DNA of 64,000 nucleotides. It comes from Omnitrophica bacterium GWA2_41_15 (lineage in GTDB: Bacteria; Omnitrophota; Gorgyraeia; Gygaellales; Profunditerraquicolaceae). Below are positions 37,701-53,700 of the stretch, piece by piece (the stretch's first letter is position 1; each line of letters begins with the position of its first letter). The translations under genes were made by a program, and so were the position numbers. The stretch covers positions 64,192 to 128,191 of the forward strand of contig CAKKQB010000013.1 in the NCBI GenBank assembly GCA_919901915.1, in the 5' to 3' direction. The notes below the pieces were generated by a model. The model saw only the letters and a program-made list of their open reading frames with translations, did no database searches and had not been told where the DNA came from.

Positions 37701-39386
37701 TGGGTCAATTGCCGGATTAGTAACCTGCGCGAATAACTGTTTAAAATAACTATAAAGCAACTGCGGCTTATCAGATAAAACCGCATGCGGGGTATCATTA
37801 CCCATTGAGCCATTCGGTTCATGAGAATCTTCCACCATAGGTTTAATGATAAATTTAAAATCCTCGCGGGTGTAACCGAAAGCTTTGAATAGAGTTAACG
37901 GATCTACTTTATTAGCGGATAGCGGATAGCTTTTATTAGCGTAGAGCGTAGAGCGTAAAGCGTAGAGCGTTTTGCTTTTCCTATCCGCTATACGCTCTAC
38001 GCTATCCGCTGATAATTTATCCAACTCTAACATATTTTTTTTAAGCCATTCTCCATACGGCTTAGAGCTTGCCATTGTTTCTTTTATTTCCTTATCTTCA
38101 ATTATGCGGCCTTCTTCTGTATCAACAAAAAGCATCTTTCCCGGTTCAAGCCTTCCTGAGATAGAAATATCATCCGGCGCGATATCTAAAACCCCTGCCT
38201 CTGAAGCCATAACTACCAAATTCTTTTTGGTCACAATATAGCGGCTAGGCCTTAAACCATTTCTGTCTAAAACCGCGCCAATCCTTACGCCATCAGTAAA
38301 GGCAATGGCTGCCGGTCCATCCCAGGACTCAATAAGACAAGTGTGGTATTTATAAAAATCTCTTACATTTTGACTCAAAAGATTATTCTGCTCCCAAGCG
38401 CTGGGTATTAACATCATCATCGCGTGAGACAAAGATCTACCCGATAAAACTAAAAGTTCAAAAACATTATCAATAGCCGCGGAATCGCTTCCCCCGGGAA
38501 CAATCACCGGAAAAATTTCCTTTAAATCCTTACCAAATAATTTACTTTTTAGTAAACCTTGGCGGGCAGTCATCCAATTTATATTCCCTTTTAAGGTATT
38601 TATCTCTCCATTATGCGCCAAGAACCGAAAAGGCTGCGCCAGATCCCAAGTGGGAAAAGTATTGGTACTATAACGGGAATGCACTAAACAAATCGCGCTT
38701 TGAAGAGCGCTGTCTTTTAAATCCAAAAAGAATTTCTCCAACTGCTCAGGCATAAGCAGGCCTTTATAAGAAAGCGTGCGGCAAGAAAGATTAGTAATAT
38801 AAAAAAATGATTTTTGTTTTAAGAATAAAGAGCGGATTTCGTTTTCTATTTTCTTGCGGATAATATAAAGCCTGCGCTCAAAATCAAGGCCATCCTTACC
38901 TATACTTAGACCTTTACCTTTACCTATAAAAACCTGCTCAATCACCGGTTGAGTAAGCTTTGCGGTTTTGCCAATCGCGGAATTATCAACCGGGACAATC
39001 CGCCAACCAAGCAAGGCCTGGCCCTCTTCTTTAATAATTCTAGCAAAGATACCCTTACATAACGCGCGCTCTTTTTTGTTAGTGGGAAGAAATACCATGC
39101 CTATCCCATAATCGCCAGAGGACGGTAAAATAAAATTTTCCTTCGCGCAGGCTTTTGCCAAAAATTCATGTGGCGCCTGAATAAGTATGCCTGCGCCATC
39201 CCCGGTCTCTGGGTCGGCGCCAGTTGCCCCGCGATGAGAAAGACGGCCTAAAACCTCCATGCCCTGTTTAATAATTTCATAAGATTTTTTGCCTTTGACA
39301 TCGCAAACAAATCCTACGCCGCAGGAATCATGTTCAAAACGGGAATCATACAACCCGTATTTTTCTAATTTCTGACGATTATCCAT
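34743..39386 (-). CDS. gltB: glutamate synthase large subunit
   Basis: 1547 aa. Ntn Cys (DSCGVGF), central domain, FMN domain and GXGXG domain. Contains two repeat-derived inserts. Confidence 0.95.
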   Translation of the reverse strand: MDNRQKLEKYGLYDSRFEHDSCGVGFVCDVKGKKSYEIIKQGMEVLGRLSHRGATGADPETGDGAGILIQAPHEFLAKACAKENFILPSSGDYGIGMVFLPTNKKERALCKGIFARIIKEEGQALLGWRIVPVDNSAIGKTAKLTQPVIEQVFIGKGKGLSIGKDGLDFERRLYIIRKKIENEIRSLFLKQKSFFYITNLSCRTLSYKGLLMPEQLEKFFLDLKDSALQSAICLVHSRYSTNTFPTWDLAQPFRFLAHNGEINTLKGNINWMTARQGLLKSKLFGKDLKEIFPVIVPGGSDSAAIDNVFELLVLSGRSLSHAMMMLIPSAWEQNNLLSQNVRDFYKYHTCLIESWDGPAAIAFTDGVRIGAVLDRNGLRPSRYIVTKKNLVVMASEAGVLDIAPDDISISGRLEPGKMLFVDTEEGRIIEDKEIKETMASSKPYGEWLKKNMLELDKLSADSVERIADRKSKTLYALRSTLYANKSYPLSANKVDPLTLFKAFGYTREDFKFIIKPMVEDSHEPNGSMGNDTPHAVLSDKPQLLYSYFKQLFAQVTNPAIDPIREELVMSLDTYLGPQKNILDEQPRHCHKLLVKNPILTNEDLKKIHDIKKNGFKTKTISLLFNISEKNNFKKALDRICKETEAAIKEGFTFVILSDQGINKDKACLSALLATACVHQDLVRKALRTQVSIIVQSASPREVHHFALLFGYGADCINPYLAYEAAAFLIRDKEVDLDLESAIKHYIKAVDKGILKILSRMGISTLQSYRGAQIFEALGLSSEVIDKYFTGTVSRIGGIDLGIIEKEALLRHKEAFAVDGLQRPFLATGGLYQWKKDGEFHLWNPDSIAALQGAVRNNDSKKYQEFAKLINDQSSNPATLRSLFKFKEVKPIPIEEVEPVSEIVRRFVTGAMSFGSISKACHETIAIAMNRLGGRSNTGEGGEDPARFVAFPNGDSKRSAIKQVASGRFGVITNYLVNADELQIKIAQGAKPGEGGQLPGHKVSAAIAKIRYTTPGVTLISPPPHHDIYSIEDLAQLIFDLKNVNPRARVSVKLVSEIGVGTIATGVAKGHADMILISGGDGGTGASPLSSIKHAGLPWELGIAETHQTLVLNDLRSRVRLQVDGGMRTGRDVAVAALLGAEEFGFCTSVLVVLGCVMLRHCHLNNCSLGVATQDELLEKRFSGKPEYVENYFRFIAQELRQIMSSLGIVKIDDLIGRADLLEVNSKILPWKAKKIDFSRILYQPKGNGRASHSPSRKPEGSGLAPYKQDYGIDNILDRKLIELARGALENRKPIKIELSIRNHNRSVGTMLSGEVCRIFGEDGLPANTIHFKFKGVAGQSFGAWLAKGVTLELEGLTNDYVGKGMSGGKIIIYPDRQSNYKVEENIIIGNTTFYGAILGSAYIRGIAGERFCIRNSGLYAVVEGVGDHACEYMTGGRVVVIGRTGRNFAAGMSGGIAYVWDKDGDFKNKCNMEMVILEAVAEEDARTIEKLLSNHYHYTRSSSAKNILDNFTPELKKFVKVMPIEYKRVLGGRKTEEKIELVEASDG
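35597..35658. repeat. E-type palindromic element inside gltB (in frame, linker between FMN and C-terminal domains)
   Basis: ccaaaccactgccctctggcttgcggctcgggctatgggaagcccgaccattgccctttggc encodes QPKGNGRASHSPSRKPEGSGL. Confidence 0.7.
37911..38010. repeat. A-type heptamer-array hairpin inside gltB (in frame)
   Basis: attagcggatagcggatagc...tagcgtagagcgtagagcgtaaagcgtagagcg-loop-ctatccgctatacgctctacgctatccgct encodes SADSVERIADRKSKTLYALRSTLYANKSYPLSAN. Confidence 0.85.
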
Positions 39387-39389
39387 ATT

Positions 39390-39558
39390 TTTAGCGTATA
39401 GCGTATAGCGTAGAGCGTAGAGCGTATAGCGTATAGCGTAGAACGTAGAGCGTAGAGCGGATAGCGGATAGTAAAAATCTATGTTTTAACTATATGTTAT
39501 CCGCTATTCCTACACGCTTTCTTTCCTATCCGCTAAACGCTATACGCTCTACGCTAAT
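39390..39558. repeat. A-type heptamer-array hairpin, largest copy (left arm about 11 units)
   Basis: tagcgtatagcgtatagcgtagagcgtagagcgtatagcgtatagcgtagaacgtagagcgtagagcggatagcggatag, then a loop, then a degenerate complementary arm. Confidence 0.85.
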
Positions 39559-39589
39559 ATAAAATACCTCATAGACCTACGAGGCATAT

Positions 39590-41785
39590 TTAGTTTATAA
39601 ATAACATCTCCCTATATTTGGGAAGATCCCAGGTATCATCCGGAACAACAGATTCCAATGAGTCCACGTGCCTGCGGATATGCTCCATTAACGGCTTAAG
39701 CTCCTCAAAATAAATCTGCGCGCGTTTTTCGCTGCCTACCTGTTTAGCCCTATCAAGCAGTTTAACCATCGCCAGAGAATTTTTACGCACATAATAAATC
39801 TTTGAAACTACCTCACAAAGATGCTCTTTTTTATCATTTAATACCGCCTCATTTATTTTTAGGCCCGCGCTTTTCTTAAGCTTAACTAATTCATCCAAAG
39901 TAGAAGCCAGTAATTTCTCATACTTATAACCCGCTGGCACCACCGAAGCATTAACCATCTCATTTAAAGTATTAGCTTCGATTTCCAGAATGAGATTATA
40001 CATATGGATCCAAATGTGATACCGCGCAGCCAACTCCTCTTTAGAAAAAACCTTATATTTTTCAAAAAGAGCGACATTTTCTTTTTTATTTAAAGCTTCC
40101 AGCGACTCATAAGTAGCAGCGACATTCGCTAAACCGCGTTTTTTAGCTTCCTTGACCCACTCCTCTGAATAGTTATTTCCTTCAAAACGAATATACTTAG
40201 TTTCTTTAACGATTTTAGAGATCACCTGCAAAACGCCAGCGTTAAAATCCTTTCCCGCGGAAACAGCTCCCTTAATCTGCTCAGCAACATAGTCTAAGCT
40301 TTCAGCAATTATCGTGTTGATTACCGTAATCGACGTAGAGATATTCTGCGATGAACCTACAGCGCGGAATTCGAATTTAGCCCCGGTAAAAGCAAACGGT
40401 GAAGTACGATTCCTATCCGTTGAATCCTTGCTAAACTTAGGCAGACGAGCGATACCAAAATCCATAATATCAGCTTTAGAAACTTTTGACTTAACCCCTT
40501 TTTCAATCATATCCAAAATATTAGTCAATTGCTCGCCCAGAAACACACTAATGATCGCCGGAGGCGCTTCATTTGCCCCTAAACGATGCTCATTGCCGGC
40601 TAATGCCACAGAGGCGCGCAAAAGATCGCCATGCGAATAGACTGCTCTTAAAACCGCGGCTAAAACCGCTAAAAATTGCAGATTATCTTCCGGAGTCTGG
40701 CCGGGATTAAGCAAATTATTACCTTGATCATCCGCTAGCGACCAGTTCAGGTGTTTTCCGCTTCCGTTTATACCGGCAAATGGTTTCTCATGCAAAAGGC
40801 AAACCAGATTATGCTTTAAGGCAACCTTCTTCATCAACTCCATAAGTAATTGGTTATGATCAGCGGCAATATTTGATTCCTCAAACATTGGAGCAAATTC
40901 ATACTGATGCGGAGCAACTTCATTATGACGGGTTATTACCGGTATGCCCAACTTATAAGCCTCTTGAGCCACCTCAAACATAAAATTAACTACGCGCTCT
41001 TTAATCGTTCCGAAATACTGATCTTCTAATTGCTGGCCTTTAGGGCTTGGCGCGCCAATCAAAGTGCGGCCGGTCATAATTAAATCCTGGCGTAAATTAT
41101 AATAGTTTTTATCAATCAAAAAGTATTCCTGCTCCGCCCCGCAAGTTGAAAAAACTTTTTTGATCTGCTGATGGCCAAAAAGCTTAAGCAATTCCAATGC
41201 GGATTTATTTAAAGCTTCATCAGAACGCAGAAGCGGAAGCTTCTTATCCAATGCCTCACCATGATAAGAAATAAATATCGTCGGAATACAGAGAGTCTTA
41301 CCCAGCGCGCTTTCAATAATAAAAGCGGGGCTGGAAGGATCCCATGCGGTGTAACCTCTGGCTTCAAAAGTCGCGCGAATGCCGCCTGAAGGAAAACTCG
41401 ACGCATCAGGCTCGCCTTGAATCAGTTTATTCCCGGAAAATTTCTCAATAACTTTACCCGGGCCAATAATCGAAATAAAACTATCATGTTTTTCCGCGGT
41501 AAGCCCGGTCATCGGCTGAAACCAATGCGTATAATAGGTAGCGCCCAAATCAGTCGCCCAATTTTTTATAGCATCAGCAATCTCATCAGCTTGAACCAAA
41601 CTTATAATCTTACCCGCAGACATCCATGTCTTAAACGCCTCAAAAGTATCCTTAGAAATATGTTTCTGCATAGTTTCAAGGCTAAAAGTATTCTGCCCGA
41701 AATACGTAGAAACTTTATCCGGCGCCTCCACCTTATCTAATTCTAAACTTTTAATCCTAAACAAAACTTTCTGTCTTATACTCAT
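39590..41785 (-). CDS. glnN: glutamine synthetase type III
   Basis: 731 aa. Length and sequence typical of GSIII (GEPDASSFPSGG, NGSGKHLNWS). Confidence 0.9.
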   Translation of the reverse strand: MSIRQKVLFRIKSLELDKVEAPDKVSTYFGQNTFSLETMQKHISKDTFEAFKTWMSAGKIISLVQADEIADAIKNWATDLGATYYTHWFQPMTGLTAEKHDSFISIIGPGKVIEKFSGNKLIQGEPDASSFPSGGIRATFEARGYTAWDPSSPAFIIESALGKTLCIPTIFISYHGEALDKKLPLLRSDEALNKSALELLKLFGHQQIKKVFSTCGAEQEYFLIDKNYYNLRQDLIMTGRTLIGAPSPKGQQLEDQYFGTIKERVVNFMFEVAQEAYKLGIPVITRHNEVAPHQYEFAPMFEESNIAADHNQLLMELMKKVALKHNLVCLLHEKPFAGINGSGKHLNWSLADDQGNNLLNPGQTPEDNLQFLAVLAAVLRAVYSHGDLLRASVALAGNEHRLGANEAPPAIISVFLGEQLTNILDMIEKGVKSKVSKADIMDFGIARLPKFSKDSTDRNRTSPFAFTGAKFEFRAVGSSQNISTSITVINTIIAESLDYVAEQIKGAVSAGKDFNAGVLQVISKIVKETKYIRFEGNNYSEEWVKEAKKRGLANVAATYESLEALNKKENVALFEKYKVFSKEELAARYHIWIHMYNLILEIEANTLNEMVNASVVPAGYKYEKLLASTLDELVKLKKSAGLKINEAVLNDKKEHLCEVVSKIYYVRKNSLAMVKLLDRAKQVGSEKRAQIYFEELKPLMEHIRRHVDSLESVVPDDTWDLPKYREMLFIN

Positions 41786-41803
41786 GTGTTCCTCCTTTTA
41801 ATA

Positions 41804-41840
41804 GTGTATAGCGGATAGTTTTACTTTTTTTTATCCACTA
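41804..41840. repeat. short degenerate A-type hairpin
   Basis: gtgtatagcggatag-ttttactttttt-ttatccacta. Confidence 0.5.
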
Positions 41841-41865
41841 ACCTACCCTTTATAACTAACAATTA

Positions 41866-43023
41866 CTAAGCATCAAGAAATTCTTCAGCATCCGCGTAGG
41901 CCTCTGCTCTTCTGCCAAAAAGCGAAAGTATTAATCCCGAGATATACCCACTAACAAAAGCTAGTACAACAGCAATAACAATACCTGTCCACTGCTTTCT
42001 GCAATCTAATCCGCTTACAACAAACATCGCGGCAATACCGCCCATTAAACCGGGTAGCCCATGTAAACACATAACACCGCAAGTATCTACTTTCTTAATT
42101 TTATTCTGCAACCATGGGAGAATAACAGCAAAACCAAATACCGACAAGGCTCCGGCTAATAATCCGATTACCATTGAACTAACTGGGTTCGCGTAATCAC
42201 AAGTAGAACCAATAGCCACGCCGCCAGCCAATGACGCGTTCGCGATATCACTAATTGAAATCTTGCGCCTCAAAACACAAGAAGTAATATAGGTAGCTAA
42301 CGTCGCGCCGCAAAGAGCAATAACCACATTAATTACCGTTTGTGGCACCTTTGCCGTTGGCACAAGCGCCGCGCAAAAACTTGGCCAAAAAAACCACAAG
42401 ACCATACTCCCCAACATTGAGAATCTGTCGCTTACAACATCCGTTTCTATGGGTGTATCAAATTCTTTTTTTGTGGTCAAATTCATTATCAGGCCAAACC
42501 CAAAAATAGCTCCGAAGGCATGGATTATTATAGAACCTCCAGTATCCGCGAAACCGCCATTAGGCAACAATCCAAAGCCGCCTGAAAGAATTATCCATTC
42601 ATTCAACATATAACAAGGAACAAAAAGCAACCCTAATATAATATATTGAATCATTTTTAATCTGCCTAACACCGCGCCGGCACAGATCAAAAGGCCTGCT
42701 CCCGCGAACTCTGCCAAAATCAAGCCGTCTATACCTGTCTGAACATTTCCAAATAAACCTAAACTATTGAGACAAATATATAACGGTACTGCCACGCTTA
42801 CCAGCAAGAATGTCGCTGTCAACGCGGAGCGCCCATACTTTTTAACAAAAACCATCAAAAAACCAAACCCAACTAAAAGCATTGCCATTATATGTATTGC
42901 CCGATCACATTTTTGAACATCTGTAACTGGGCCTAAAAAATCCTCTGCCGAACTAACACGCAGAAAAATTAACGACGCAGCCAACACCAACAACAATATT
43001 AACATCCAACGATTTTTTTTCAT
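41866..43023 (-). CDS. ammonium channel, Rh-type (Rh50-like) rather than AmtB-type
   Basis: 385 aa, about 11 TM segments. Has LVGFGFLMVFVKKYGRSA and IIHAFGAIFGFG, which resemble Rh-family signatures. Confidence 0.75.
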   Translation of the reverse strand: MKKNRWMLILLLVLAASLIFLRVSSAEDFLGPVTDVQKCDRAIHIMAMLLVGFGFLMVFVKKYGRSALTATFLLVSVAVPLYICLNSLGLFGNVQTGIDGLILAEFAGAGLLICAGAVLGRLKMIQYIILGLLFVPCYMLNEWIILSGGFGLLPNGGFADTGGSIIIHAFGAIFGFGLIMNLTTKKEFDTPIETDVVSDRFSMLGSMVLWFFWPSFCAALVPTAKVPQTVINVVIALCGATLATYITSCVLRRKISISDIANASLAGGVAIGSTCDYANPVSSMVIGLLAGALSVFGFAVILPWLQNKIKKVDTCGVMCLHGLPGLMGGIAAMFVVSGLDCRKQWTGIVIAVVLAFVSGYISGLILSLFGRRAEAYADAEEFLDA

Positions 43024-43083
43024 TTTATCCTTTCTTTGCCTAAAAAAGTAACTTCCCTTAATAAGCTGAAGACGTCCCTGTCC

Positions 43084-43121
43084 TTAAAAACAAGAAGCCC
43101 CAAAACATTTTGGGGCTTCTT
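43084..43121 (-). terminator. intrinsic-terminator-like hairpin + U tract located inside the predicted leader of the Rh-type channel gene
   Basis: Minus strand reads aagaagccccaaaatgttttggggcttctt followed by gttttt. Confidence 0.6.
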
Positions 43122-43147
43122 TGCCTTTGACTTAATTGTCAATTAAG

Positions 43148-43175
43148 ATCATAGCATATTTCATATTCTTGTCAA
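43148..43175 (-). promoter_or_regulatory. sigma70-type promoter (tttttcTTGACA-16-TATGAT) upstream of the Rh-type channel gene
   Basis: Minus strand reads TTGACAagaatatgaaatatgcTATGAT, followed by palindrome cttaattgacaattaag. Confidence 0.5.
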
Positions 43176-43201
43176 GAAAAAAAATGCAAGGGGAGGGGAA
43201 T

Positions 43202-44635
43202 TTAGGTTCTTTCGTCTTTAAGGTAGTTAATTATTGAAAAAGCGGCTTTCTTAGCCATGCCCATTGCCTCAATAACCGTGCCTTCTCCACCCACGATATC
43301 TCCGCCGGCAAAAACGCCTTTAATAGATGTCTCCATAGTTTGGGGGTTTACGATAACATCTTTGTATTTATCGGTTTTTAACTCCGATGTAACATTAGTT
43401 AAAACCTGATTTGCCTGCAAACCCACGGCAATAATCGCTATATCGCAATCTATTCCAAAATCGCTTCCCTCTACAGCAACCGGCCTTCTTCTCCCGGATT
43501 CATCCGGCTCTCCCAAGCGGCACCTAAGACACCTTAACTTTTGCACCTTTCCTTCCTCATCGCCGATAAACTCTACTGGCTGAACCAAAAATTCAATTTT
43601 TATTCCCTCTTCCTTAGCATGTTCGATTTCCAATCTTCTTGCCGGCATCTCAACTTCAGTCCTACGATAAAGAATTGTGGTGTTAGGGCTAAACCCATTT
43701 ATTATTTGCAATCTTAACGCGGCTCGAGCAGCATCCAAAGCTGTATTGCCTCCGCCAACAACTAAGACCTGCTTACCTATATTAATAGGGGTGTGAAACT
43801 GAGGAAACTTGTCAGCTAACATCAAATTAACCCGAGTTAAGAATTCATTGGCTGAATAAACATTGCCTAAATTCTCGCCTTTTATTTCTAAAAATGACGG
43901 CACACCCGCGCCCAACCCCAGAAATATAGCAGAATATCCTTCGCTAAAAAGCTCATCTAACGCCTTAACTTTTCCCACAATAAAATTAGGGATGAGTTGA
44001 ACCCCCAATTTCTTTAACTCATTTATTTCATAATCAAGAACATCGCGCGGCATCCTAAAAGGGGGTATCCCATACCTTAAAACTCCGCCCGGTTTATGCA
44101 AACTCTCAAAGATATCCACCTTTACTCCCTGCCTTGCCAATTCACCGGCGCAAGCCAAACCAGCCGGACCAGAACCCACAACCGCGACTTTAAACCCAAA
44201 CTTAACAAATTTCTGATCCTTGCCTGCTGGCGCCTCCAAATTATTCTTTACCCCATAATCACCGACAAATCTTTCCAAAAAATGAATATTGATTGCCTGC
44301 TCTGAAGCAAAAGAGGCGGTCTTTTTTGTCAAAACACAAGCCCTGCGGCACTGATATTCCGCGGGACAAACCCTTCCGCAAATAGAGGGAAAATCATTCT
44401 TTTCCCGAAGAATAAAATAAGCCGCCCTATAATCTTTTTTGGTAATCCAAGAGATAAACTCCTTTATATTTATTCCTACGGGACAACCGAATTGACAAAT
44501 AGGGTTCGGACACTGCAGACAGCGGTTAGCCTCAATAAGCGCCTCTTCTTCTGTGTATCCTAAAACTACCTCATCAAAATTCTTTATTCTTTCTGAAGGA
44601 TTTAATTCTCTTACTTTTACTGCTTCTTTTTTCAT
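43202..44635 (-). CDS. nfnB: NfnB/SudA-like NADPH-dependent glutamate-synthase-beta-type oxidoreductase
   Basis: 477 aa. Two Fe-S Cys clusters, GSGPAGL and GGGNTA folds. Paired with the NfnA-like gene. Confidence 0.75.
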   Translation of the reverse strand: MKKEAVKVRELNPSERIKNFDEVVLGYTEEEALIEANRCLQCPNPICQFGCPVGINIKEFISWITKKDYRAAYFILREKNDFPSICGRVCPAEYQCRRACVLTKKTASFASEQAINIHFLERFVGDYGVKNNLEAPAGKDQKFVKFGFKVAVVGSGPAGLACAGELARQGVKVDIFESLHKPGGVLRYGIPPFRMPRDVLDYEINELKKLGVQLIPNFIVGKVKALDELFSEGYSAIFLGLGAGVPSFLEIKGENLGNVYSANEFLTRVNLMLADKFPQFHTPINIGKQVLVVGGGNTALDAARAALRLQIINGFSPNTTILYRRTEVEMPARRLEIEHAKEEGIKIEFLVQPVEFIGDEEGKVQKLRCLRCRLGEPDESGRRRPVAVEGSDFGIDCDIAIIAVGLQANQVLTNVTSELKTDKYKDVIVNPQTMETSIKGVFAGGDIVGGEGTVIEAMGMAKKAAFSIINYLKDERT

Positions 44636-44659
44636 CCTCTTATTTTTAATGTTTTAGTA

Positions 44660-44732
44660 TTTAGCGGATAGCGTATAGCGTATATATAGGTTTTACTATC
44701 CGCTATACGCTCTACGCTATACGCTATACGCT
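44660..44732. repeat. A-type heptamer-array hairpin
   Basis: tttagcggatagcgtatagcgtata-loop-tatccgctatacgctctacgctatacgctatacgct. The right arm contains the nfnA stop. Confidence 0.85.
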
Positions 44733-45569
44733 TGATATTTTAAGATTACAGATATGCTTTTCTTTATCTAAATAAACACTGTTCCTCTTTGTCAATTCAT
44801 CCCAATTTACTTGAGTTCCGTCAAATTCCGGGCCATCAACGCAAGCAAATTTCGTCTTACCTGCCACAGTTACACGGCAACAGCCGCACATTCCAGTAGC
44901 ATCTACCATCAAAGGATTCAAAGAAACAATGGTTTTAACTTTAAAATCGCTAGCAACCTCGCAAACTCTTCTCATCATCGGTATCGGGCCGACTGCGTAA
45001 ATTAGCGAATAGCGGATAGCGGATAGTGAATAGCTTAATACCTCCTGCAAAATATCAGTAACAAAGCCTTTCCTGCCGCAAGAACCGTCATCAGTGGTTA
45101 TATAAAGCTCATCGCAAAACACCTTTAGCTCCTGCTCCAAAATCAATAAATCATTGTTTCTTGCGCCCAGTATAGTAGTAGTATGGTTTCCCGCTTCTTT
45201 CAAAGCCTTGGCAACCGGATAAATCTCCGCAATTCCTACGCCTCCGCCTACAAGAATTAAATTTCCAAAATTTTTAATCTCAGTAGCATGCCCCAGGGGC
45301 CCGGCCAAAGCGTATAATGAATCACCAACCTCCATCTTGCCCAGCAACTTAGTAGTTAAGCCAACCTCTTGAAAGATCAAGGTAATTGTGCCTATGTCAG
45401 AATTTTTATCTACTATAGTTAGAGGTATCCTTTCGCCTTCCTCGCATACCATAAGAACAACAAATTGGCCCGGTCTTACTTTCCTGGCAATAAGCGGGCT
45501 TAAGATTTCAAAGCGCTTAATTGTTACGTCTTGCGTTTGTGCTAAAATTTCTTTTTTGATTATCCGCAT
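44724..45569 (-). CDS. nfnA: NfnA/SudB-like FAD/NAD-binding ferredoxin-reductase-type subunit (PyrK family)
   Basis: 281 aa. Has RPGQFV, GGGVGIA and a C-terminal 2Fe-2S Cys cluster (GMCGCCRV...CVDGPEF). Confidence 0.75.
   Translation of the reverse strand: MRIIKKEILAQTQDVTIKRFEILSPLIARKVRPGQFVVLMVCEEGERIPLTIVDKNSDIGTITLIFQEVGLTTKLLGKMEVGDSLYALAGPLGHATEIKNFGNLILVGGGVGIAEIYPVAKALKEAGNHTTTILGARNNDLLILEQELKVFCDELYITTDDGSCGRKGFVTDILQEVLSYSLSAIRYSLIYAVGPIPMMRRVCEVASDFKVKTIVSLNPLMVDATGMCGCCRVTVAGKTKFACVDGPEFDGTQVNWDELTKRNSVYLDKEKHICNLKISSV
45001..45035. repeat. A-type heptamer array (single arm) inside nfnA, in frame
   Basis: agcgaatagcggatagcggatagtgaatagc encodes SYSLSAIRYSLIY. Confidence 0.7.
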
Positions 45570-45607
45570 AGAAAAAATTGATTACCGAAAGAAAAGGATT
45601 CGTTGAT

Positions 45608-45728
45608 GGGACTGTTGTGAAATACCAAACCTTGCGTCATTCTGAGGCCGAAAGCCGAAGAATCTCGACGCTGATAAGATCCTTCGCTTCGCTCAGGATG
45701 ACGAAAAAGGGTATTTCGCAACGGTCCC
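45608..45728. mobile_element. MITE-like element, short variant (ends GGGACTGTTGTGAAATACC / GGTATTTCGCAACGGTCCC)
   Basis: Same end family as 8025-8197 and 51992-52164, but with core II inside (gtcattctgaggccgaaagccgaagaatc...gctcaggatgac). Confidence 0.75.
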
Positions 45729-45740
45729 TTGATCGGAATC

Positions 45741-46478
45741 TTACTTTACATCACTGTAATCATTCTTATTTTTTAATTCGGCAGTTAAAATAATTGCTTC
45801 GGCGATTTCGCGCATGGACTTACGTTTATCCATACTCTGTTTTTGAATTAATCTGTAGGCCTCGGATGGTTTTACATCTGCCTCCTGGGAAAGTATATCC
45901 TTTGCCCGTTCAATCAGCTTGCGGGTAACTAAGGCTTCTTCAGCGCTATGCGCCCGCAAAGATAATTCAGCATTTTCAATGGCCATAGCCGTCTGATTGG
46001 CCAAAGTTGTAAGAAGACTTATCTCGGATTTTGTAAACTTATGTCTTTTTGAGGTATAACAATTAAGCACGCCGATTACTGTCCCTCTTACTGCCAAAGG
46101 GACACTAGCCAAAGAACAAAGCCCTTCTTTTTTAGCGATGTCCCTATTTAAGTAATCCGCGTCTTCCCTGACATCCAAAACAACCATTGATTTATTATCC
46201 CGCGCAACCGCTCCCGCAATCCCCTCTCCTAATTTTATATTGGGTTTTTTATTGTAGCTTTGAGAAATAGACTGGGTCGCGCGTACAACTAATTCTTTCC
46301 TCTCGGAATCAAGAAGCATCAAAGAAGAGATTTTTAAATTCATCACCTGGGCAGTAACCTCAACAACTAAACGAAGAAGCTCGTCCAGATACAAGCCTGA
46401 AGTAATCAGGTTCGCGACCTTAGAAATCGCCTCAATCTGCTTTGTATAAACCTGATAACCCTTTACCTTTTTAATCAT
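45741..46478 (-). CDS. GAF + ANTAR domain RNA-binding antitermination regulator
   Basis: 245 aa. A GAF domain, then an ANTAR-like C-terminus (LVTRKLIERAKDILSQEADVKPSEAYRLIQKQSMDKRKSMREIAEAII). Confidence 0.85.
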   Translation of the reverse strand: MIKKVKGYQVYTKQIEAISKVANLITSGLYLDELLRLVVEVTAQVMNLKISSLMLLDSERKELVVRATQSISQSYNKKPNIKLGEGIAGAVARDNKSMVVLDVREDADYLNRDIAKKEGLCSLASVPLAVRGTVIGVLNCYTSKRHKFTKSEISLLTTLANQTAMAIENAELSLRAHSAEEALVTRKLIERAKDILSQEADVKPSEAYRLIQKQSMDKRKSMREIAEAIILTAELKNKNDYSDVK

Positions 46479-46484
46479 AATTAG

Positions 46485-47642
46485 TTAACGATTCCTCTTC
46501 AAAAAACTTTCTATTCTACTTAACGCCTCTTTCAAATTATCAAAACTTGCGGCATAGGATATGCGAATATTGTCCGCGAACTGAGCGCCAAAAGCTGTGC
46601 CCGGAATAACCGCGACCTTTTCCTCCTTTAAAAGCTGTTGGCAAAAATCCATCGCCTTAAGACCGCTGCTTTTTATGCTGGGAAAAGCATAGAAAGCACC
46701 CTGCGGCTTTGAACACTCAAGGCCGATGCGATTCAGCTCACTAACCACAAACTCTCTTCTTCGTTTATATTCACGCTTCATCTCTTCCACTGATTTTCTG
46801 CCTGAATGCATCGCTTCAGAAGCAGCTATTTGAGAAGTAATAGACACGCACATAATGGTATACTGATGAATCTTAGTCATAGCCGCGATAATCTCTTTTG
46901 GGCCGCAAGCAAAGCCCACACGCCAGCCAGTCATCGCGTAACTTTTGGAAAAACCATCAAGATAAACAGTCGAATTTTTTGCTTGAGGCAATGTCGCGAA
47001 AGGCGTATGAGTAAAATCATACGTCAAATCTCCATAAACCTCATCGCTGATACAAAGCAGATTATACTTCAACGCGATCTTCTTAATTTCCTCTAATTCT
47101 TTTTTAGTATAAGATACGCCCGTAGGATTAGTAGGGTAGTTCAATATAATTGCTTTAGCTTTCTTGTCTATGCTCTTCTCCAAGCTTTCCGGTGTAAGCT
47201 TAAAATTGTTTTTACTTGTATCGATATAAACAGGTATACCGCCGGCTAATTCACTAACCGGGCCGTAAGAAACATAACATGGCTCGGGTATAATTATTTT
47301 ATCACCCGGATTTATAATGGAACGCAAAACTAAATCCAAAGCCTCGCTTACCCCAACAGTAATCAAAATCTCTTCATCCGGACAATAATCCAAACCGTAT
47401 TTATTTTTTAGGTATTGTGAAATGGTCAGCCTTAATTTATACAAGCCCTTATTTGAGGTGTAAGAGGTAAAACCCTCTTCTAATGAAGCTATCCCTGCTT
47501 CGCGTATCTGCCAAGGCGTAACAAAATCCGGCTCACCCACGCCAAGGGAAATTACATCCTTCATGCCTAATACTAAATCAAAAAACGCGCGAATTCCGGA
47601 GGGATGCATTTGCTTAACTTTTTCGGAAACCAAATCTTTCAT
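46485..47642 (-). CDS. class I/II PLP-dependent aminotransferase (AspC-like)
   Basis: 385 aa. Has NPTG and the PLP lysine motif SKSYAMTGWRVG. Confidence 0.9.
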   Translation of the reverse strand: MKDLVSEKVKQMHPSGIRAFFDLVLGMKDVISLGVGEPDFVTPWQIREAGIASLEEGFTSYTSNKGLYKLRLTISQYLKNKYGLDYCPDEEILITVGVSEALDLVLRSIINPGDKIIIPEPCYVSYGPVSELAGGIPVYIDTSKNNFKLTPESLEKSIDKKAKAIILNYPTNPTGVSYTKKELEEIKKIALKYNLLCISDEVYGDLTYDFTHTPFATLPQAKNSTVYLDGFSKSYAMTGWRVGFACGPKEIIAAMTKIHQYTIMCVSITSQIAASEAMHSGRKSVEEMKREYKRRREFVVSELNRIGLECSKPQGAFYAFPSIKSSGLKAMDFCQQLLKEEKVAVIPGTAFGAQFADNIRISYAASFDNLKEALSRIESFLKRNR

Positions 47643-47649
47643 CGTTTTC

Positions 47650-47716
47650 AGCGTTTAGCGGATAGCGTTTAGCGTATAGTTTTTTTTATCCGCTATACGC
47701 TCTACGCTATACGCTA
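47650..47716. repeat. A-type heptamer-array hairpin
   Basis: cagcgtttagcggatagcgtttagcgtatag-ttttttt-tatccgctatacgctctacgctatacgcta. Confidence 0.85.
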
Positions 47717-48202
47717 TTAATACGATATAGCTATCCTCTTATTCTCTTCCCTGTGCTTCAAAATCACTCCATCTTCCTTATATTTTTTTAATAAAAAGTG
47801 CGTGACTATGCCGCGGATATTCTCGAGGCAAGAAAGTTTCTCCGCTACAAATTGTGAAACTTTTTGTAAATTCTTGCCCTCAACTATAACCAAAAGGTCA
47901 TACGTGCCGGAAATCAAGCAACAGTCAGTTACCTCCGGAAACGAATAAATACGCTCAGCAATTTTATCAAAACCAATATCCTTTTGCGGAGCAATATTAA
48001 CCTCTATCAAAGCCCTGACGGAAGGCTCTTCGGTTTTAATTAAATCCTTATTTATTACTGTTTTATATTTTAAAATTATCCCCTCTTTTTCATACTTTTT
48101 TATCGCCTCTTTTATTGCCTCCGGCTTTTTCTTTAACATTTTCGCGATCTCTTCCGGAGTTACAAGCGCGTTCTTTTCTAATATCTCTAATATTTCGTCC
48201 AT
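47717..48202 (-). CDS. Lrp/AsnC family transcriptional regulator
   Basis: 161 aa. An HTH, then a RAM/AsnC_trans_reg domain. Confidence 0.85.
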   Translation of the reverse strand: MDEILEILEKNALVTPEEIAKMLKKKPEAIKEAIKKYEKEGIILKYKTVINKDLIKTEEPSVRALIEVNIAPQKDIGFDKIAERIYSFPEVTDCCLISGTYDLLVIVEGKNLQKVSQFVAEKLSCLENIRGIVTHFLLKKYKEDGVILKHREENKRIAISY

Positions 48203-48225
48203 TACCTCGCTCCTTTCAGTCGCTC

Positions 48226-48287
48226 GGAGAGAACAGATTACAGAGTACGGATTACTGAAAGATTTTTCTGTGCTCTGTTCTCTGTGC
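48226..48287. repeat. C-type heptamer hairpin (CAGAGMA units), overlapping the nadE 3' end
   Basis: ggagagaacagattacagagtac...ctgtgctctgttctctgtgc. Related to 61007-61095. Confidence 0.7.
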
Positions 48288-49008
48288 TTTCTTTAATATA
48301 GCATATTTTCGGCCCTTCCCTCTTATGCTCTGATTTCTTTACCATATTTTTTACTTTATTTACTTTCTCTTTTGATAAGACCTGTTTCTTCTTGTTTTCC
48401 AAACGCTCCAATATGTCATCTAACTCGTTATAGGTAAGCCCCATTTCTCCTTCATCGGTCTGGCCTGGCCAGAGTCCGGCAGTAGGCGGCTTAGTAACAA
48501 TGGATTCGGGAATCTTTAATTCTTTAGCCAATGCCCTTACCTGTTTTTTTAATAAACCGCCGATTGGCAAAATATCCGTTGCCCCGTCGCCATACTTGGT
48601 AAAATAACCGACTTCAATTTCAGATCTATTTCCTGTGCCGCAGACAAGATAATTAAGTTTATTGGCAAAATAATATAAAACTAACATCCTTAAGCGCGGT
48701 TTTAAATTTGCCAAAGCTAACGGCCCCGCTTTGGGTAAAATTTTCATGACATTGTCGTAAATATCAGCCAAATCAATTAATTTTATTTTTATCCCAAATT
48801 TCCTTGCCACTAACTTTGCGTCATCTAAATCCTGTTTTTGACTATGACAGCCAAGAAACAAAACCAAAAGTTTTTGTTTACCCAGCGCTTCCCTGGCTAA
48901 AACAGCTACCACCGCGGAATCTATCCCCCCGCTTAAACCCATAACAATACCCTTTGCCTTAGCCGCTTTGACCTGCTGCCTAATCCAAGAAATAATTTTC
49001 TTTTTCAT
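48238..49008 (-). CDS. nadE: NH3-dependent NAD+ synthetase
   Basis: 256 aa with the SGGIDS PP-loop. The last about 16 aa (STENRAQKNLSVIRTL) are repeat-derived. Confidence 0.9.
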   Translation of the reverse strand: MKKKIISWIRQQVKAAKAKGIVMGLSGGIDSAVVAVLAREALGKQKLLVLFLGCHSQKQDLDDAKLVARKFGIKIKLIDLADIYDNVMKILPKAGPLALANLKPRLRMLVLYYFANKLNYLVCGTGNRSEIEVGYFTKYGDGATDILPIGGLLKKQVRALAKELKIPESIVTKPPTAGLWPGQTDEGEMGLTYNELDDILERLENKKKQVLSKEKVNKVKNMVKKSEHKREGPKICYIKESTENRAQKNLSVIRTL

Positions 49009-49107
49009 ATTTTATTTAAAAATATCACCTAAATAAACCGGGACCGAGAACCGCCCCTGTTTCTTGCCCCTGCTTCTCACAATATTGCACTTTTAAGCAA
49101 TGCTCGT

Positions 49108-49815
49108 TTACGCGGCTTCGCGCAAAAAATTTGTACCCCTGCAGGCGCCGACGCAAACTCCGCAAACATATTGATCTGCTAATCTCTGCTTTTGAAACTC
49201 CTTTAACTTCTCAAAACACTTGATATGATCAAATTCTGTTGCTTCCTCTTTTATTGCTCCAGAGGGACATATTTTAGCACAAAGCATACAACTACCGCAA
49301 TCTTTTTTTACCGGCTTATCTATTTTCAAAGGCATATTGGTAAGTATGGTAACTAAGCGAAATTGACTTCCTAAGGTTTCGTTAACCAATAAATTATTCC
49401 TGCCAATCCAGCCTAAACCAGCTAAGACACCTATCTTTTTATGCGAAAGATGCGCCTTTTGGTTCTGCCAATCTAAAATTATTGAAGCAGGAATTGGCAA
49501 GGCAAGAAAACTTTTTTTCTGTATGTAATTACATATTTTAAGGCTACTCTGATCCAAAAACGCGTTGACTACGCGATAATGATGAAAATAAAGACGGGTA
49601 GGACTATCAACAATTTCTTCTAAAATACTCCCGGATAACCTTACGCCCAGGCAAACCGCGCTATCTAATTTATCAATGGCCTTGCCAGATAAAAGAAAAT
49701 CCTTTTTTATCTCTTTGATATCCGCGACACCAAATAAATCTATACCTAAATCCTGACAGAATTTCTTTAATTGCGAATAATTTTTATTTTTGCTTACACT
49801 CTCTTGCATATACAA
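49108..49815 (-). CDS. 4Fe-4S protein, short QueG (epoxyqueuosine reductase)-like
   Basis: 235 aa. Has AGLGWIGRNNLLVNETLGSQFRLVTILTN and CGSCMLCAKICPSGAI. Confidence 0.5.
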   Translation of the reverse strand: MYMQESVSKNKNYSQLKKFCQDLGIDLFGVADIKEIKKDFLLSGKAIDKLDSAVCLGVRLSGSILEEIVDSPTRLYFHHYRVVNAFLDQSSLKICNYIQKKSFLALPIPASIILDWQNQKAHLSHKKIGVLAGLGWIGRNNLLVNETLGSQFRLVTILTNMPLKIDKPVKKDCGSCMLCAKICPSGAIKEEATEFDHIKCFEKLKEFQKQRLADQYVCGVCVGACRGTNFLREAA

Positions 49816-49832
49816 TTATCAAAAACCACCCT

Positions 49833-49903
49833 GTCATTCTGAGGCCCTGAAGGGGCCGAAGAATCTCGACGCTAATAAGATCCTTCGCTTCGCTCAGGAT
49901 GAC
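49833..49903. repeat. core II capped hairpin without MITE ends, overlapping the mnmG 3' end
   Basis: gtcattctgaggccctgaaggggccgaagaatctcgacgctaataagatccttcgcttcgctcaggatgac; compare 45636-45702. Confidence 0.8.
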
Positions 49904-53642: not shown

Positions 53643-53700
53643 ATTAGCGCGGATAGCGTTTAATTTTTTCTATACGCTATACGCTCTACGCTATACGCTA
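53643..53700. repeat. A-type heptamer-array hairpin
   Basis: ttagcgcggatagcgttta-atttttt-ctatacgctatacgctctacgctatacgcta. Confidence 0.85.

What the first reader, a model, noticed from the sequence alone, without database searches (positions are those of the whole stretch)
43024..43201. Promoter, then operator-like palindrome, then terminator hairpin, ahead of the ammonium channel gene; a GAF-ANTAR regulator is encoded 2.7 kb upstream
Reading the minus strand gives this order:
1. tttttcTTGACA-16-TATGAT (43175-43148)
2. palindrome cttaattgacaattaag
3. a near-perfect stem (about 13 bp per arm), aagaagccccaaaatgttttggggcttctt, followed by gttttt (43121-43084)
4. about 60 nt further on, the start codon at 43023

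If the promoter is real, the terminator lies within the 5' leader. That is the layout of an attenuator controlled by antitermination.

ANTAR proteins (NasR, AmiR, EutV) act exactly this way, and the GAF-ANTAR gene at 45741-46478 is in the same block. I could not recognise the canonical ANTAR dual hexaloop target by eye. The link is therefore a hypothesis.
Basis: inference. Interest (0 to 1): 0.6.

Follow-up and report, generated by a model that had tools for sequence, protein, structure and literature searches.

The report
ANTAR antitermination leader of ammonium channel gene
The DNA in front of this uncultured bacterium's ammonium-channel gene encodes an RNA stop signal, overlapped by the small loops that a neighbouring RNA-binding regulator (GAF-ANTAR) would grip to cancel the stop; this is a known kind of nitrogen switch, seen here in a new phylum with an unstudied type of regulator.

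Summary
The missing piece is also there. The "operator-like palindrome" contains a hexaloop hairpin, P1 (43142-43127, UUGAC-AAUUAA-GUCAA). One base later sits a canonical ANTAR hexaloop hairpin, P2 (43125-43114, GGC-AAAGAA-GCC). P2's loop and 3' arm form the 5' arm of the 13-bp terminator (43121-43092, then GUUUUU).

- **Model search.** A covariance model built only from the published, mostly Firmicutes ANTAR-target alignment ranks this site first in the 64-kb window. The score is weak (14.5 bits, E about 0.17), because P1 has U instead of G at loop position 4 and the linker is 1-2 nt.
- **Comparative evidence (decisive).** Orthologous Rh-type amt genes in at least 12 other Omnitrophota contigs carry P1/P2 plus a terminator whatever gene lies upstream, often ending about 20 nt before the start codon. 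The closest relative shares 50 identical nt across P1, P2 and the stem, and has three such modules in series.
- **Regulator.** The GAF-ANTAR protein keeps EutV's RNA-contact residues.

Verdict: an ANTAR-type attenuator, and a new member of a known kind (compare Geobacter GnfR and E. faecalis EutV). The regulator's signal, the transcription start and actual read-through control are inferred, not shown.

The parts
43170..43175 (-). -35 hexamer TTGACA
   Evidence: 11/12 promoter match; sequence.
43148..43156 (-). Extended -10: TG-c-TATGAT. The predicted transcription start is about 43141 (43144-43140), at the first bases of P1.
   Evidence: The start position is inferred from the usual 7-nt spacing and was not measured. 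'atatgcTAT' is shared with the L036 leader. In L095 the -10 is only partly conserved (TATAGC).
43127..43142 (-). P1 hexaloop hairpin UUGAC-AAUUAA-GUCAA. It keeps the closing AC/GU pairs and A1 of the ANTAR consensus, but has U where G4 should be. It lies inside the 17-nt palindrome 43147-43131.
   Evidence: Predicted in the minimum-free-energy fold. Aligned to P1 of the published-alignment model R1. Identical in L095. L098 has another G4-less P1, AACUUA.
43114..43125 (-). P2 hexaloop hairpin GGC-AAAGAA-GCC (A1 and G4 present). Its loop and 3' arm are the first 8 nt of the terminator's 5' arm.
   Evidence: the only GGCARWGARGCC in the window. The same 12-mer class sits before amt or an N operon in 11 loci. 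It is identical to P2 loops in the published alignment.
43086..43121 (-). Intrinsic terminator T1: AAGAAGCCCCAAA-ATGT-TTTGGGGCTTCTT (13 bp), then G-TTTTT.
   Evidence: The stem-loop alone folds at -20 kcal/mol. With the 12 nt of P2 blocked, only a 5-bp stem remains, 8 nt from the U-run.
43069..43084 (-). Second hexaloop hairpin AGGAC-AGGGAC-GUCUU (A1, G4). It is the remnant of a further attenuator module whose terminator 3' arm has been lost in this genome.
   Evidence: (hit 43084-43046, 9.8 bits). The alignment with L094/L095, where the homologous hairpin overlaps an intact terminator AGAGACGTCTTC...GAAGTCGTCTCT+T7, is.
43021..43033 (-). Ribosome-binding stretch AAAGGA (43033-43028) and ATG start (43023-43021) of amt.
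41866..43023 (-). Controlled gene: an Rh-type ammonium channel (385 aa). It is followed 80 nt later, with no predicted terminator in between, by type III glutamine synthetase (39590-41785).
   Evidence: Pfam. Sources name it 'ammonium transporter Rh'. No terminator is listed in 41786-41865.
45741..46478 (-). Candidate regulator: a one-component GAF-ANTAR protein (245 aa). It is the only ANTAR protein in the window.
   Evidence: Pfam. Only one ANTAR-domain protein was found. The equivalents of EutV Arg142, Lys149 and Tyr164 and the SM(N/D)KR methionine are conserved (read against PMC8934654). It is 77-82% identical across Omnitrophota, with conserved synteny.
43202..44635 (-). Upstream gene: an NfnB/GltD-like oxidoreductase. 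Its transcripts, if not stopped earlier, would also meet T1.
   Evidence: Pfam. No terminator is predicted between its stop (43202) and T1.

Best explanation
The 178-nt spacer ahead of the Rh-type ammonium-channel gene is a transcription attenuator of the ANTAR class.

Proposed sequence of events:
1. Transcription starts at a near-consensus sigma-70-type promoter, about 43141. Some transcripts probably also arrive by read-through from nfnAB.
2. The first 30 nt or so of the RNA fold into two small hexaloop hairpins, P1 and P2.
3. By default the much more stable 13-bp terminator forms, using P2's loop and 3' arm. Transcription then stops at the U-run, 62 nt before the start codon.
4. When the GAF-ANTAR protein encoded 2.6 kb upstream is in its active state, its ANTAR domains hold the P2 hexaloop, possibly after first touching P1. 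This keeps 8 of the 13 nt of the terminator's 5' arm unavailable.
5. RNA polymerase then runs on into amt and probably glutamine synthetase III.

Shown here: the sequence anatomy, the folding energetics, its conservation in front of orthologous genes, and an ANTAR domain with intact RNA-contact residues.

Inferred: the transcription start, that termination and read-through actually occur, that this particular protein is the antiterminator, and that the GAF domain reports nitrogen status. My guess for the signal is 2-oxoglutarate or glutamine, with activity under nitrogen limitation.
For: 1. Anatomy. In folding, the nascent 38 nt adopt exactly P1+P2 as the minimum-energy structure (-7.8 kcal/mol). 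The full leader adopts the terminator (-26.8). Blocking P2 leaves only a 5-bp stem detached from the U-run.
2. Independent model. Model R1, built only from 34 published ANTAR targets, puts 43142-43114 first of all hits on both strands of the window. It is the only top hit that overlaps a terminator, which is the two-step criterion used in PMC3369931.
3. P2. It equals the published consensus RRGY-AAHGDV-GCYY. It also matches the Geobacter GnfR box CAGGCAANGGCGCC at 10 of 13 specified positions (my count).
4. Orthologous leaders. L004, L031, L037, L038, L039, L042, L043, L046, L084, L096, L098 and L099 have P1 + P2 + terminator in front of amt. L042 has the identical P2.
5. Closest relative. L095 (87% Amt identity) is identical over the 50 nt spanning P1, P2 and the stem, while its flanks differ. 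It carries three terminators in series up to 22 nt before the ATG.
6. Link to the regulator.
   - L005 has an ANTAR gene, then this leader, then amt and gltB.
   - L092 has two GAF-ANTAR genes followed by hexaloop-terminator modules and amt, P-II, glnA and gltB.
   - L093 has a module before nfnAB-gdh, 3.2 kb after its GAF-ANTAR gene.
7. Hexaloops that overlap terminator 5' arms in Omnitrophota sequences are enriched for A1/G4: 28, against a mean of 8.8 for the 15 other letter pairs. Their stems show G-C to A-U exchanges.
8. No promoter-like site lies between the hairpin and the start codon.
9. ANTAR control of ammonium transporter, P-II and glutamine/glutamate synthase genes is documented or predicted in other phyla.
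Against: - The model score is weak (14.5 bits, E about 0.17), against 19.6-26.4 bits for related leaders.
- P1 has U at loop position 4. G4 stacks on the conserved tyrosine in the EutV-RNA structure, and mutating it weakens EutV binding.
- The P1-P2 linker is 1-2 nt. Published targets have 3-18 nt, and shortening the eutP linker to 3 nt nearly abolished induction.
- The predicted start lies on the first bases of P1, so P1 may be only 3-4 bp in the real transcript.
- The promoter match alone is within chance for a 64-kb window. Its -10 is only partly conserved in L095.
- Some 80-82% identical amt orthologues (L001-L003, L040, L041, L097) have no such leader.
- No expression, binding or termination data exist.
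- The organism is uncultured, and the rest of its genome may encode other ANTAR proteins.
Confidence: 0.75

Rival explanations
1. The hairpin is an ordinary, unregulated terminator for the upstream nfnAB genes. The hexaloop resemblance is vestigial or chance, and amt is expressed from leak-through or from an unrecognised promoter.
For: The hairpin is the first terminator after the nfnB stop. The model score is not significant on its own. P1 lacks G4 and the linker is too short by EutV standards. A neighbouring module has visibly decayed in this genome.
Against: The same P2 plus terminator travels with amt whatever the upstream gene is. In L031/L038 that gene is tRNA-Asn, and no locus has nfnB upstream. 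The 50-nt block is identical in L095 while its flanks diverge. No promoter-like site lies downstream of the hairpin. In relatives the terminators end about 20 nt before the ATG.
Confidence: 0.1
2. The palindrome is (also) a DNA operator. TTGAC-N6-GTCAA, or the 17-nt CTTAATTGACAATTAAG, straddles the transcription start. A dimeric DNA-binding regulator, for example the Lrp/AsnC protein at 47717-48202, binds it and represses initiation, acting on top of the attenuator.
For: It is a perfect palindrome placed exactly over the predicted start. The -35 element also sits in a 13-nt palindrome TTCTTGACAAGAA with the same TTGACAA core, 33 bp away (read). An Lrp/AsnC gene is conserved in the same gene block across Omnitrophota.
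Against: TTGAC-N6-GTCAA-like sites are not enriched in the window: 3, against 1.2 expected. Perfect palindromes of this size are frequent here. The GACAA core is explained by the ANTAR P1 consensus (xxAC-AA...GU) and recurs in other hexaloop hairpins. The equivalent hairpin in L036 (GUAAC-AAAGCA-GUUGU) relies on G-U pairs, which preserve an RNA helix but not a DNA palindrome. No binding motif is known for this regulator.
Confidence: 0.1
3. The attenuator works through P2 alone. P1 is a structural 5' hairpin, or a degenerate relic, and is not contacted by the regulator.
For: The EutV-RNA structure redefined the minimal ANTAR site as a single hexaloop. P1 is the variable part across Omnitrophota leaders, with loops AGCGUA, AAUGUAA, AGCGUAA, AACUUA and AAUUAA, while P2 always keeps A1/G4. 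Several modules (L092 before amt, L093, L036 module 3) show only one hexaloop.
Against: In EutV both hairpins and their spacing are needed for antitermination in vivo and in vitro. P1 is perfectly conserved between the window and L095.
Confidence: 0.35

Closest known systems
GnfK/GnfR antitermination of nitrogen genes in Geobacter sulfurreducens (Ueki & Lovley 2010, PMC2995071)
   Same: An ANTAR protein acts on leaders of nitrogen genes, including amtB and glnK. The conserved box CAGGCAANGGCGCC (= GGC-AANGGC-GCC hexaloop hairpin) lies upstream of and overlaps a Rho-independent terminator. The window has AAGGCAAAGAAGCC in the same position.
   Different: GnfR is a phosphorylated response regulator (REC-ANTAR) under a histidine kinase, and its target genes use RpoN promoters. 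Here the regulator is a one-component GAF-ANTAR protein, the promoter looks sigma-70-type, and the phylum is Omnitrophota.
EutV/EutW and the eut dual-hexaloop antiterminators of Enterococcus faecalis (Ramesh 2012, PMC3369931; Walshe 2022, PMC8934654)
   Same: Two mini-hairpins with 6-nt loops, with P2 overlapping the terminator's 5' arm. The P2 loop AAAGAA is the same as in eutS and L. monocytogenes eutG. The RNA-contact residues Arg, Lys, Tyr and Met are conserved.
   Different: The eut linkers are 5-12 nt and both loops carry G4. Here the linker is 1-2 nt and P1 has U4. The sensor is GAF rather than REC, and the pathway is ammonium assimilation rather than ethanolamine use.
Predicted ANTAR regulons for nitrogen metabolism (Desulfotomaculum acetoxidans, D. 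reducens, Pelobacter carbinolicus; Ramesh 2012)
   Same: Covariance-model hits with overlapping terminators lie upstream of ammonium transporters, P-II, and glutamine and glutamate synthases. There are several attenuators per genome and per transcription unit. Relatives of this window have up to three modules in series.
   Different: Those predictions were in Firmicutes and Deltaproteobacteria and did not assign GAF-ANTAR regulators. As far as I could find, no Omnitrophota case and no characterised GAF-ANTAR protein is in the searchable literature.
NasR / nasF leader of Klebsiella oxytoca
   Same: A one-component ANTAR protein: a ligand-sensing domain fused to ANTAR, with no kinase. It relieves a leader terminator by binding hexaloop hairpins in a nitrogen-assimilation operon.
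   Different: NasR senses nitrate or nitrite through a NIT domain. Here the sensor is a GAF domain of unknown ligand. Its nearest solved relatives by sequence include NifA-like and PtsP (EI-Ntr) GAF domains.

Membership tests
ANTAR-target RNA (dual-hexaloop antiterminator, Ramesh 2012) | Two tandem short stem-loops, each with a six-nucleotide loop | tested here: met
   P1 is 5 bp with a 6-nt loop (43142-43127). P2 is 3 bp with a 6-nt loop (43125-43114). Together they are the minimum-energy fold of the nascent 38 nt.
ANTAR-target RNA (dual-hexaloop antiterminator, Ramesh 2012) | A at position 1 and G at position 4 of the P2 loop | tested here: met
   The loop is AAAGAA. It is identical to loops in the published alignment.
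ANTAR-target RNA (dual-hexaloop antiterminator, Ramesh 2012) | A at position 1 and G at position 4 of the P1 loop | tested here: not met
   The loop is AAUUAA: A1 is present, but position 4 is U. The same holds in L095. L098 has AACUUA.
ANTAR-target RNA (dual-hexaloop antiterminator, Ramesh 2012) | Linker between P1 and P2 within the working range (5-12 nt in eut; 3-18 nt in the published alignment) | tested here: not met
   The linker is 1 nt with a 5-bp P1, or 2 nt as aligned by the model.
ANTAR-target RNA (dual-hexaloop antiterminator, Ramesh 2012) | The 3' part of P2 overlaps the 5' arm of an intrinsic terminator | tested here: met
   The terminator's 5' arm starts at 43121, inside the P2 loop. 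8 of its 13 nt belong to P2.
ANTAR-target RNA (dual-hexaloop antiterminator, Ramesh 2012) | Significant score against a covariance model of known targets | tested here: inconclusive
   It is the top hit in the window, but at 14.5 bits and E about 0.17 with rough calibration. Related leaders score 19.6-26.4 bits. Rfam 15 returned no ANTAR-target match, only sub-threshold hits driven by the terminator.
ANTAR-target RNA (dual-hexaloop antiterminator, Ramesh 2012) | An ANTAR-domain protein encoded in the same genome | tested here: met
   PF03861, E = 3.8e-17, at 45741-46478. The RNA-contact residues are conserved.
ANTAR-target RNA (dual-hexaloop antiterminator, Ramesh 2012) | Protein binding to the RNA and protein-dependent read-through | not testable with these tools
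   This needs gel-shift and in vitro transcription assays, or in vivo reporters.
Minimal ANTAR site (single hexaloop, Walshe 2022) | One hexaloop hairpin with G4 available for stacking on the conserved tyrosine | tested here: met
   P2 has G4 at 43119. A second such hairpin lies at 43084-43069. The tyrosine is conserved in the regulator.
Rho-independent (intrinsic) terminator | G+C-containing stem-loop directly followed by a U-run | tested here: met
   13 bp with 6 G-C pairs and a 4-nt loop, then G-UUUUU. The stem-loop folds at -20 kcal/mol. Actual termination was not tested.
Sigma-70-type promoter | -35 and -10 hexamers at 16-18 nt spacing; transcription start mapped | tested here: inconclusive
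   The match is 11/12 with an extended -10 TG. Matches this good are expected 1.85 times per window by chance. No start-site data exist.

The most novel reading that the evidence does not exclude
The GAF-ANTAR protein, about 80% identical across Omnitrophota genera and always in the block Lrp/AsnC, aminotransferase, (glnA), GAF-ANTAR, is the phylum's one-component nitrogen-status sensor. It binds a metabolite such as 2-oxoglutarate or glutamine directly. It controls ammonium uptake and assimilation purely by antitermination, acting on one to three hexaloop-terminator modules in series. Its binding geometry differs from EutV's: a P1 without G4, a 1-2 nt linker, and often a single hexaloop.
Probability: 0.35. 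Interest if true: 0.55.

Novelty: new member of a known kind. Interest (0 to 1): 0.35.

Why it matters
ANTAR antitermination is already linked to nitrogen genes in Firmicutes and Deltaproteobacteria. However, no regulator that couples a GAF sensor to ANTAR appears to have been characterised, and nothing is known about gene regulation in the uncultured, often ultra-small Omnitrophota.

This locus gives a compact, testable pair: a 245-aa regulator and a 60-nt RNA. It could be used in vitro to find the GAF ligand, and to ask how much of the EutV-derived rule set (two G4 loops, 5-12 nt linker) is general. The natural series of one to three tandem modules in close relatives is also a ready-made comparison for how serial attenuators shape the response.

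It is not a new mechanism.

Tried and rejected
- **Rfam 15.** I ran the whole window at gathering thresholds and the 400-nt region at E up to 10. Only a tRNA elsewhere passed. The local hits (rimP, Phe_leader, MicC) are sub-threshold and driven by the terminator alone.
- **Sigma-54 promoter downstream of the hairpin.** A GG-N10-GC reading fits aGGgacgtcttcaGC. I rejected it because the GG is not conserved in L094/L095, and the stretch is instead the second hexaloop hairpin.
- **Leader-peptide attenuation.** A 10-codon ORF (atgaaatatgctatgatcttaattgacaattaa) ends in P1. It lies upstream of the predicted start, has no ribosome-binding site and has no informative codon run (read).
- **Palindrome as a repeated operator.** TTGAC-N6-GTCAA with up to 1 mismatch occurs 3 times in the window, against 1.2 expected, so there is no regulon signal.
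- **Other leaders of the cluster.** I checked the spacers before GSIII, gltB, nfnB and nfnA. No dual hexaloop with a terminator was found. They hold heptamer arrays or another repeat instead.
- **L036 as support for 'transcription starts at P1'.** Its TTGACA-17-TATACA is my reading only. The scan tool does not call it, because position 6 is A, so I use it only as sequence similarity.
- **Closer relatives.** The two collection scans found none above 82% Amt identity. The protein database gave L095 (87%) and L094 (85%) on very short contigs. One look-up returned no DNA.
- **My own dual-hexaloop pattern scan.** It gives mostly noise when P1 is relaxed. Only the hits before amt are credible.
- **Covariation count on hexaloop stems.** It uses hairpins I picked by hand, so the percentage paired is circular. 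Only the G-C to A-U exchange is informative.

Full report
**Observation.**
On the minus strand, the spacer between the stop of an NfnB/GltD-like gene (43202) and the start of the next gene (43023) contains the following.
- TTGACA (43175-43170), 16 nt, then TG-c-TATGAT (43156-43148).
- The 17-nt palindrome cttaattgacaattaag (43147-43131).
- A 13-bp hairpin with a 4-nt loop (43121-43092) followed by GTTTTT.
- 62 nt further on, the ATG.

The promoter match (11/12 with an extended -10) and the hairpin are each the best of their kind in 38000-50000. The leader RNA folds at -38.6 kcal/mol, z = -5.0. Pfam confirms the gene calls:
- ammonium transporter family, 41866-43023
- GAF+ANTAR, 45741-46478
- type III glutamine synthetase, 39590-41785
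- NfnA/NfnB-like pair, 43202-45569
- aminotransferase and Lrp/AsnC upstream of the regulator.

Taken alone, the promoter match is within chance for 64 kb: 3 observed against 1.85 expected. Perfect palindromes of this size are also common here.

**What the palindrome and hairpin are.**
The window belongs to a Candidatus Omnitrophota bacterium. Its Amt protein is 80-82% identical to those of several Omnitrophota genome bins.

Reading the leaders of those orthologues gave the key. L004, L031 and many metagenome contigs have ctgc-AGCGTA-gcag, a 5-7 nt linker, then ggc-AGAGAG-gcc. The last element runs straight into a terminator (gccttac...gtagggc plus a T-run). That is the ANTAR dual-hexaloop layout.

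In the window the same logic holds.
- GGC-AAAGAA-GCC (43125-43114) has A at loop position 1 and G at position 4.
- Its loop and 3' arm are the first 8 nt of the terminator's 13-nt 5' arm.
- L042 has the identical P2.

The 12-mer class GGCARWGARGCC occurs once in the window. In 11 related loci it sits at the equivalent place, before amt or before a nitrogen operon.

**Independent test.**
Rfam returned no ANTAR-target match. I therefore took the published alignment of ANTAR substrates, PMC3369931 Figures S1/S2. Its consensus is P1 SYAC-AAHGRH-GUDB and P2 RRGY-AAHGDV-GCYY. I built a covariance model from 34 of its rows.

With filters off, the best hit on both strands of the window is 43142-43114, aligned as UUGAC-AAUUAA-GUCA / AA / GGC-AAAGAA-GCC (14.5 bits, E about 0.17). 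The score is depressed for two reasons. The P1 loop has U where G4 should be, and the linker is 1-2 nt against 3-18 nt in the published set.

Related leaders score higher:
- L042: 25.5 bits
- L036: 26.4, 18.2 and 14.3 bits
- L005: 19.6 bits.

By the operational rule of the original paper (model hit, plus a terminator overlapping P2, plus an ANTAR gene in the genome) the site qualifies. On score alone it would not.

**Energetics.**
- The first 38 nt of the predicted transcript fold into exactly P1+P2 (-7.8 kcal/mol).
- Once the 3' arm is made, the terminator wins (-26.8 kcal/mol for the leader; -20 for the stem-loop alone).
- If the 12 nt of P2 are held, only a 5-bp stem remains, 8 nt away from the U-run.

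This is the expected behaviour of a protein-dependent antiterminator.

**Does the terminator belong to amt or to the upstream gene?**
The module travels with amt.
- In L031/L038 the upstream gene is tRNA-Asn.
- No related locus has an nfnB homologue upstream.
- In L031, L046 and others the T-run ends about 20 nt before the ATG.

The closest relative found is L095 (Amt 87% identical). It is identical to the window over the 50 nt from cttaattgac to ttttgggg, while the -10 region and the distal stem differ. It continues with two more hexaloop-terminator modules, the last ending 22 nt before the ATG.

The window lacks the 57-nt middle module. It retains the hexaloop hairpin of the last one (AGGAC-AGGGAC-GUCUU, 43084-43069), but that module's terminator 3' arm has been lost. 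No promoter-like site lies between the hairpin and the start codon.

So transcripts for amt must pass the terminator. Transcripts from nfnAB would also meet it, so it may serve both purposes.

**The regulator.**
- Only one ANTAR protein is encoded in the window.
- Aligned to EutV (6wsh), it keeps the residues that contact the hexaloop in the crystal structure. These are the arginine and lysine that bind G4, the tyrosine that stacks on G4, and the methionine of SM(N/D)KR (read against PMC8934654).
- It is unusually conserved: 77-82% identity in hundreds of Omnitrophota sequences.
- It sits in a conserved block: mnmG..., nadE, Lrp/AsnC, aminotransferase, (glnA), GAF-ANTAR.

Where neighbours are visible, hexaloop-terminator modules lie nearby:
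- after the first of two GAF-ANTAR genes and before amt in L092
- before nfnAB-gdh in L093
- between an ANTAR gene and amt-gltB in L005
- three in series before a short ORF followed by glnA, amtB, glnB and gltB in L036.

The nearest solved relatives of the GAF domain by sequence include NifA-like proteins and the GAF domain of PtsP. That fits a nitrogen-metabolite sensor but does not show one.

**Wider pattern.**
I examined 305 terminator-like sites in the window plus 21 Omnitrophota loci. Hexaloop hairpins placed so that their 3' arm lies in the terminator's 5' arm carry A1/G4 28 times, against a mean of 8.8 for the other 15 letter combinations. Orthologous leaders inflate this count.

Across 15 such hairpins:
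- the closing C-G pair and G4 are invariant
- A1 is present in 14
- the third stem pair is G-C in 7 and A-U in 7.

The set was hand-picked, so only the base-pair exchange is informative.

P1 is the variable element. Its loops are AGCGUA, AAUGUAA, AGCGUAA, AACUUA (L098) and AAUUAA (window, L095). G4-less P1 loops have therefore arisen at least twice while P2 stayed canonical.

**Comparison with known systems.**
The closest characterised case is Geobacter GnfR. It is an ANTAR response regulator that binds the box CAGGCAANGGCGCC, which overlaps leader terminators of nifH, glnK, amtB and other genes. The window's AAGGCAAAGAAGCC is the same hairpin.

The E. faecalis EutV system defines the dual-hexaloop rules and the structure. 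The 2012 survey already predicted ANTAR targets before ammonium transporters, P-II and glutamine/glutamate synthases in other phyla.

What differs here:
- the sensor, which is GAF and one-component, as NasR is with its NIT domain
- the phylum
- the non-canonical P1 and linker
- the serial modules in relatives.

I found no paper describing a characterised GAF-ANTAR protein or ANTAR control in Omnitrophota. The 2025 review lists the GAF-ANTAR architecture only as abundant.

**Verdict.**
The palindrome is best read as the P1 RNA hairpin rather than as an operator. A DNA-operator role cannot be excluded, but nothing requires it.

It is a new member of a known kind. Confidence that this is an ANTAR-type attenuator of amt is about 0.75. 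Whether P1 takes part is open. All regulatory behaviour is inferred.

Noticed in passing
window 39392-39471, 44696-44732, 47650-47679, 53670-53700, 41800-41830 (minus-strand reading): Arrays of a 7-nt unit (TAGCGTA/CTATACG, up to 11.4 copies) fill several intergenic spacers of the nitrogen cluster. They often come with inverted copies nearby, so long hairpins are possible. They lie before gltB, before GSIII and at the nfnA/nfnB junction, but not in the amt leader.
   Followed up: partly
window 37899-37970, inside the gltB ORF (34743-39386): The same heptamer array lies inside the glutamate synthase large-subunit reading frame. There it is translated as ...KTLYALRSTLYANKSYPLSANK.... The segment appears absent from the L036 orthologue, by eye comparison of the two translations, which would make it an in-frame repeat insertion in a coding region.
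   Followed up: no
window 45678-45702 and 49879-49903 (minus strand): An exact 25-nt repeat, GTCATCCTGAGCGAAGCGAAGGATC, with none expected by chance. One copy is in the spacer between the GAF-ANTAR gene and nfnA, as part of an inverted repeat. The other supplies the odd C-terminal ...CHPERSEGSY of the MnmG ORF.
   Followed up: partly
window 14714-15598: A 464-bp unit repeated 1.9 times at 100% identity. It begins with TTTATCCGTG repeats. It is either a true tandem duplication or an assembly artefact.
   Followed up: no
L092 10001-11839: Two paralogous GAF-ANTAR genes lie in tandem. They are separated by a promoter-like TTGACA...TAAACT and two hexaloop-terminator modules, so the second paralogue may itself be under ANTAR attenuation.
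   Followed up: partly
L002, L003, L040, L041 (about 60 nt before amt); also L001, L097: Amt orthologues of 80-82% identity in higher-GC Omnitrophota have no hexaloop-terminator leader. Four of them share a different conserved stretch (ctggacagtc.tc....cctgaagtatcctacgc), which suggests another mode of control.
   Followed up: no
L036 4271-4558: A 95-aa ORF of unknown function sits between the three tandem attenuators and glnA-amtB-glnB-gltB.
   Followed up: no
window 43135-43167 (minus strand): A 10-codon ORF (MKYAMILIDN*) overlaps the promoter spacer and ends in P1. It has no ribosome-binding site and lies upstream of the predicted start, so it is probably meaningless (read).
   Followed up: yes
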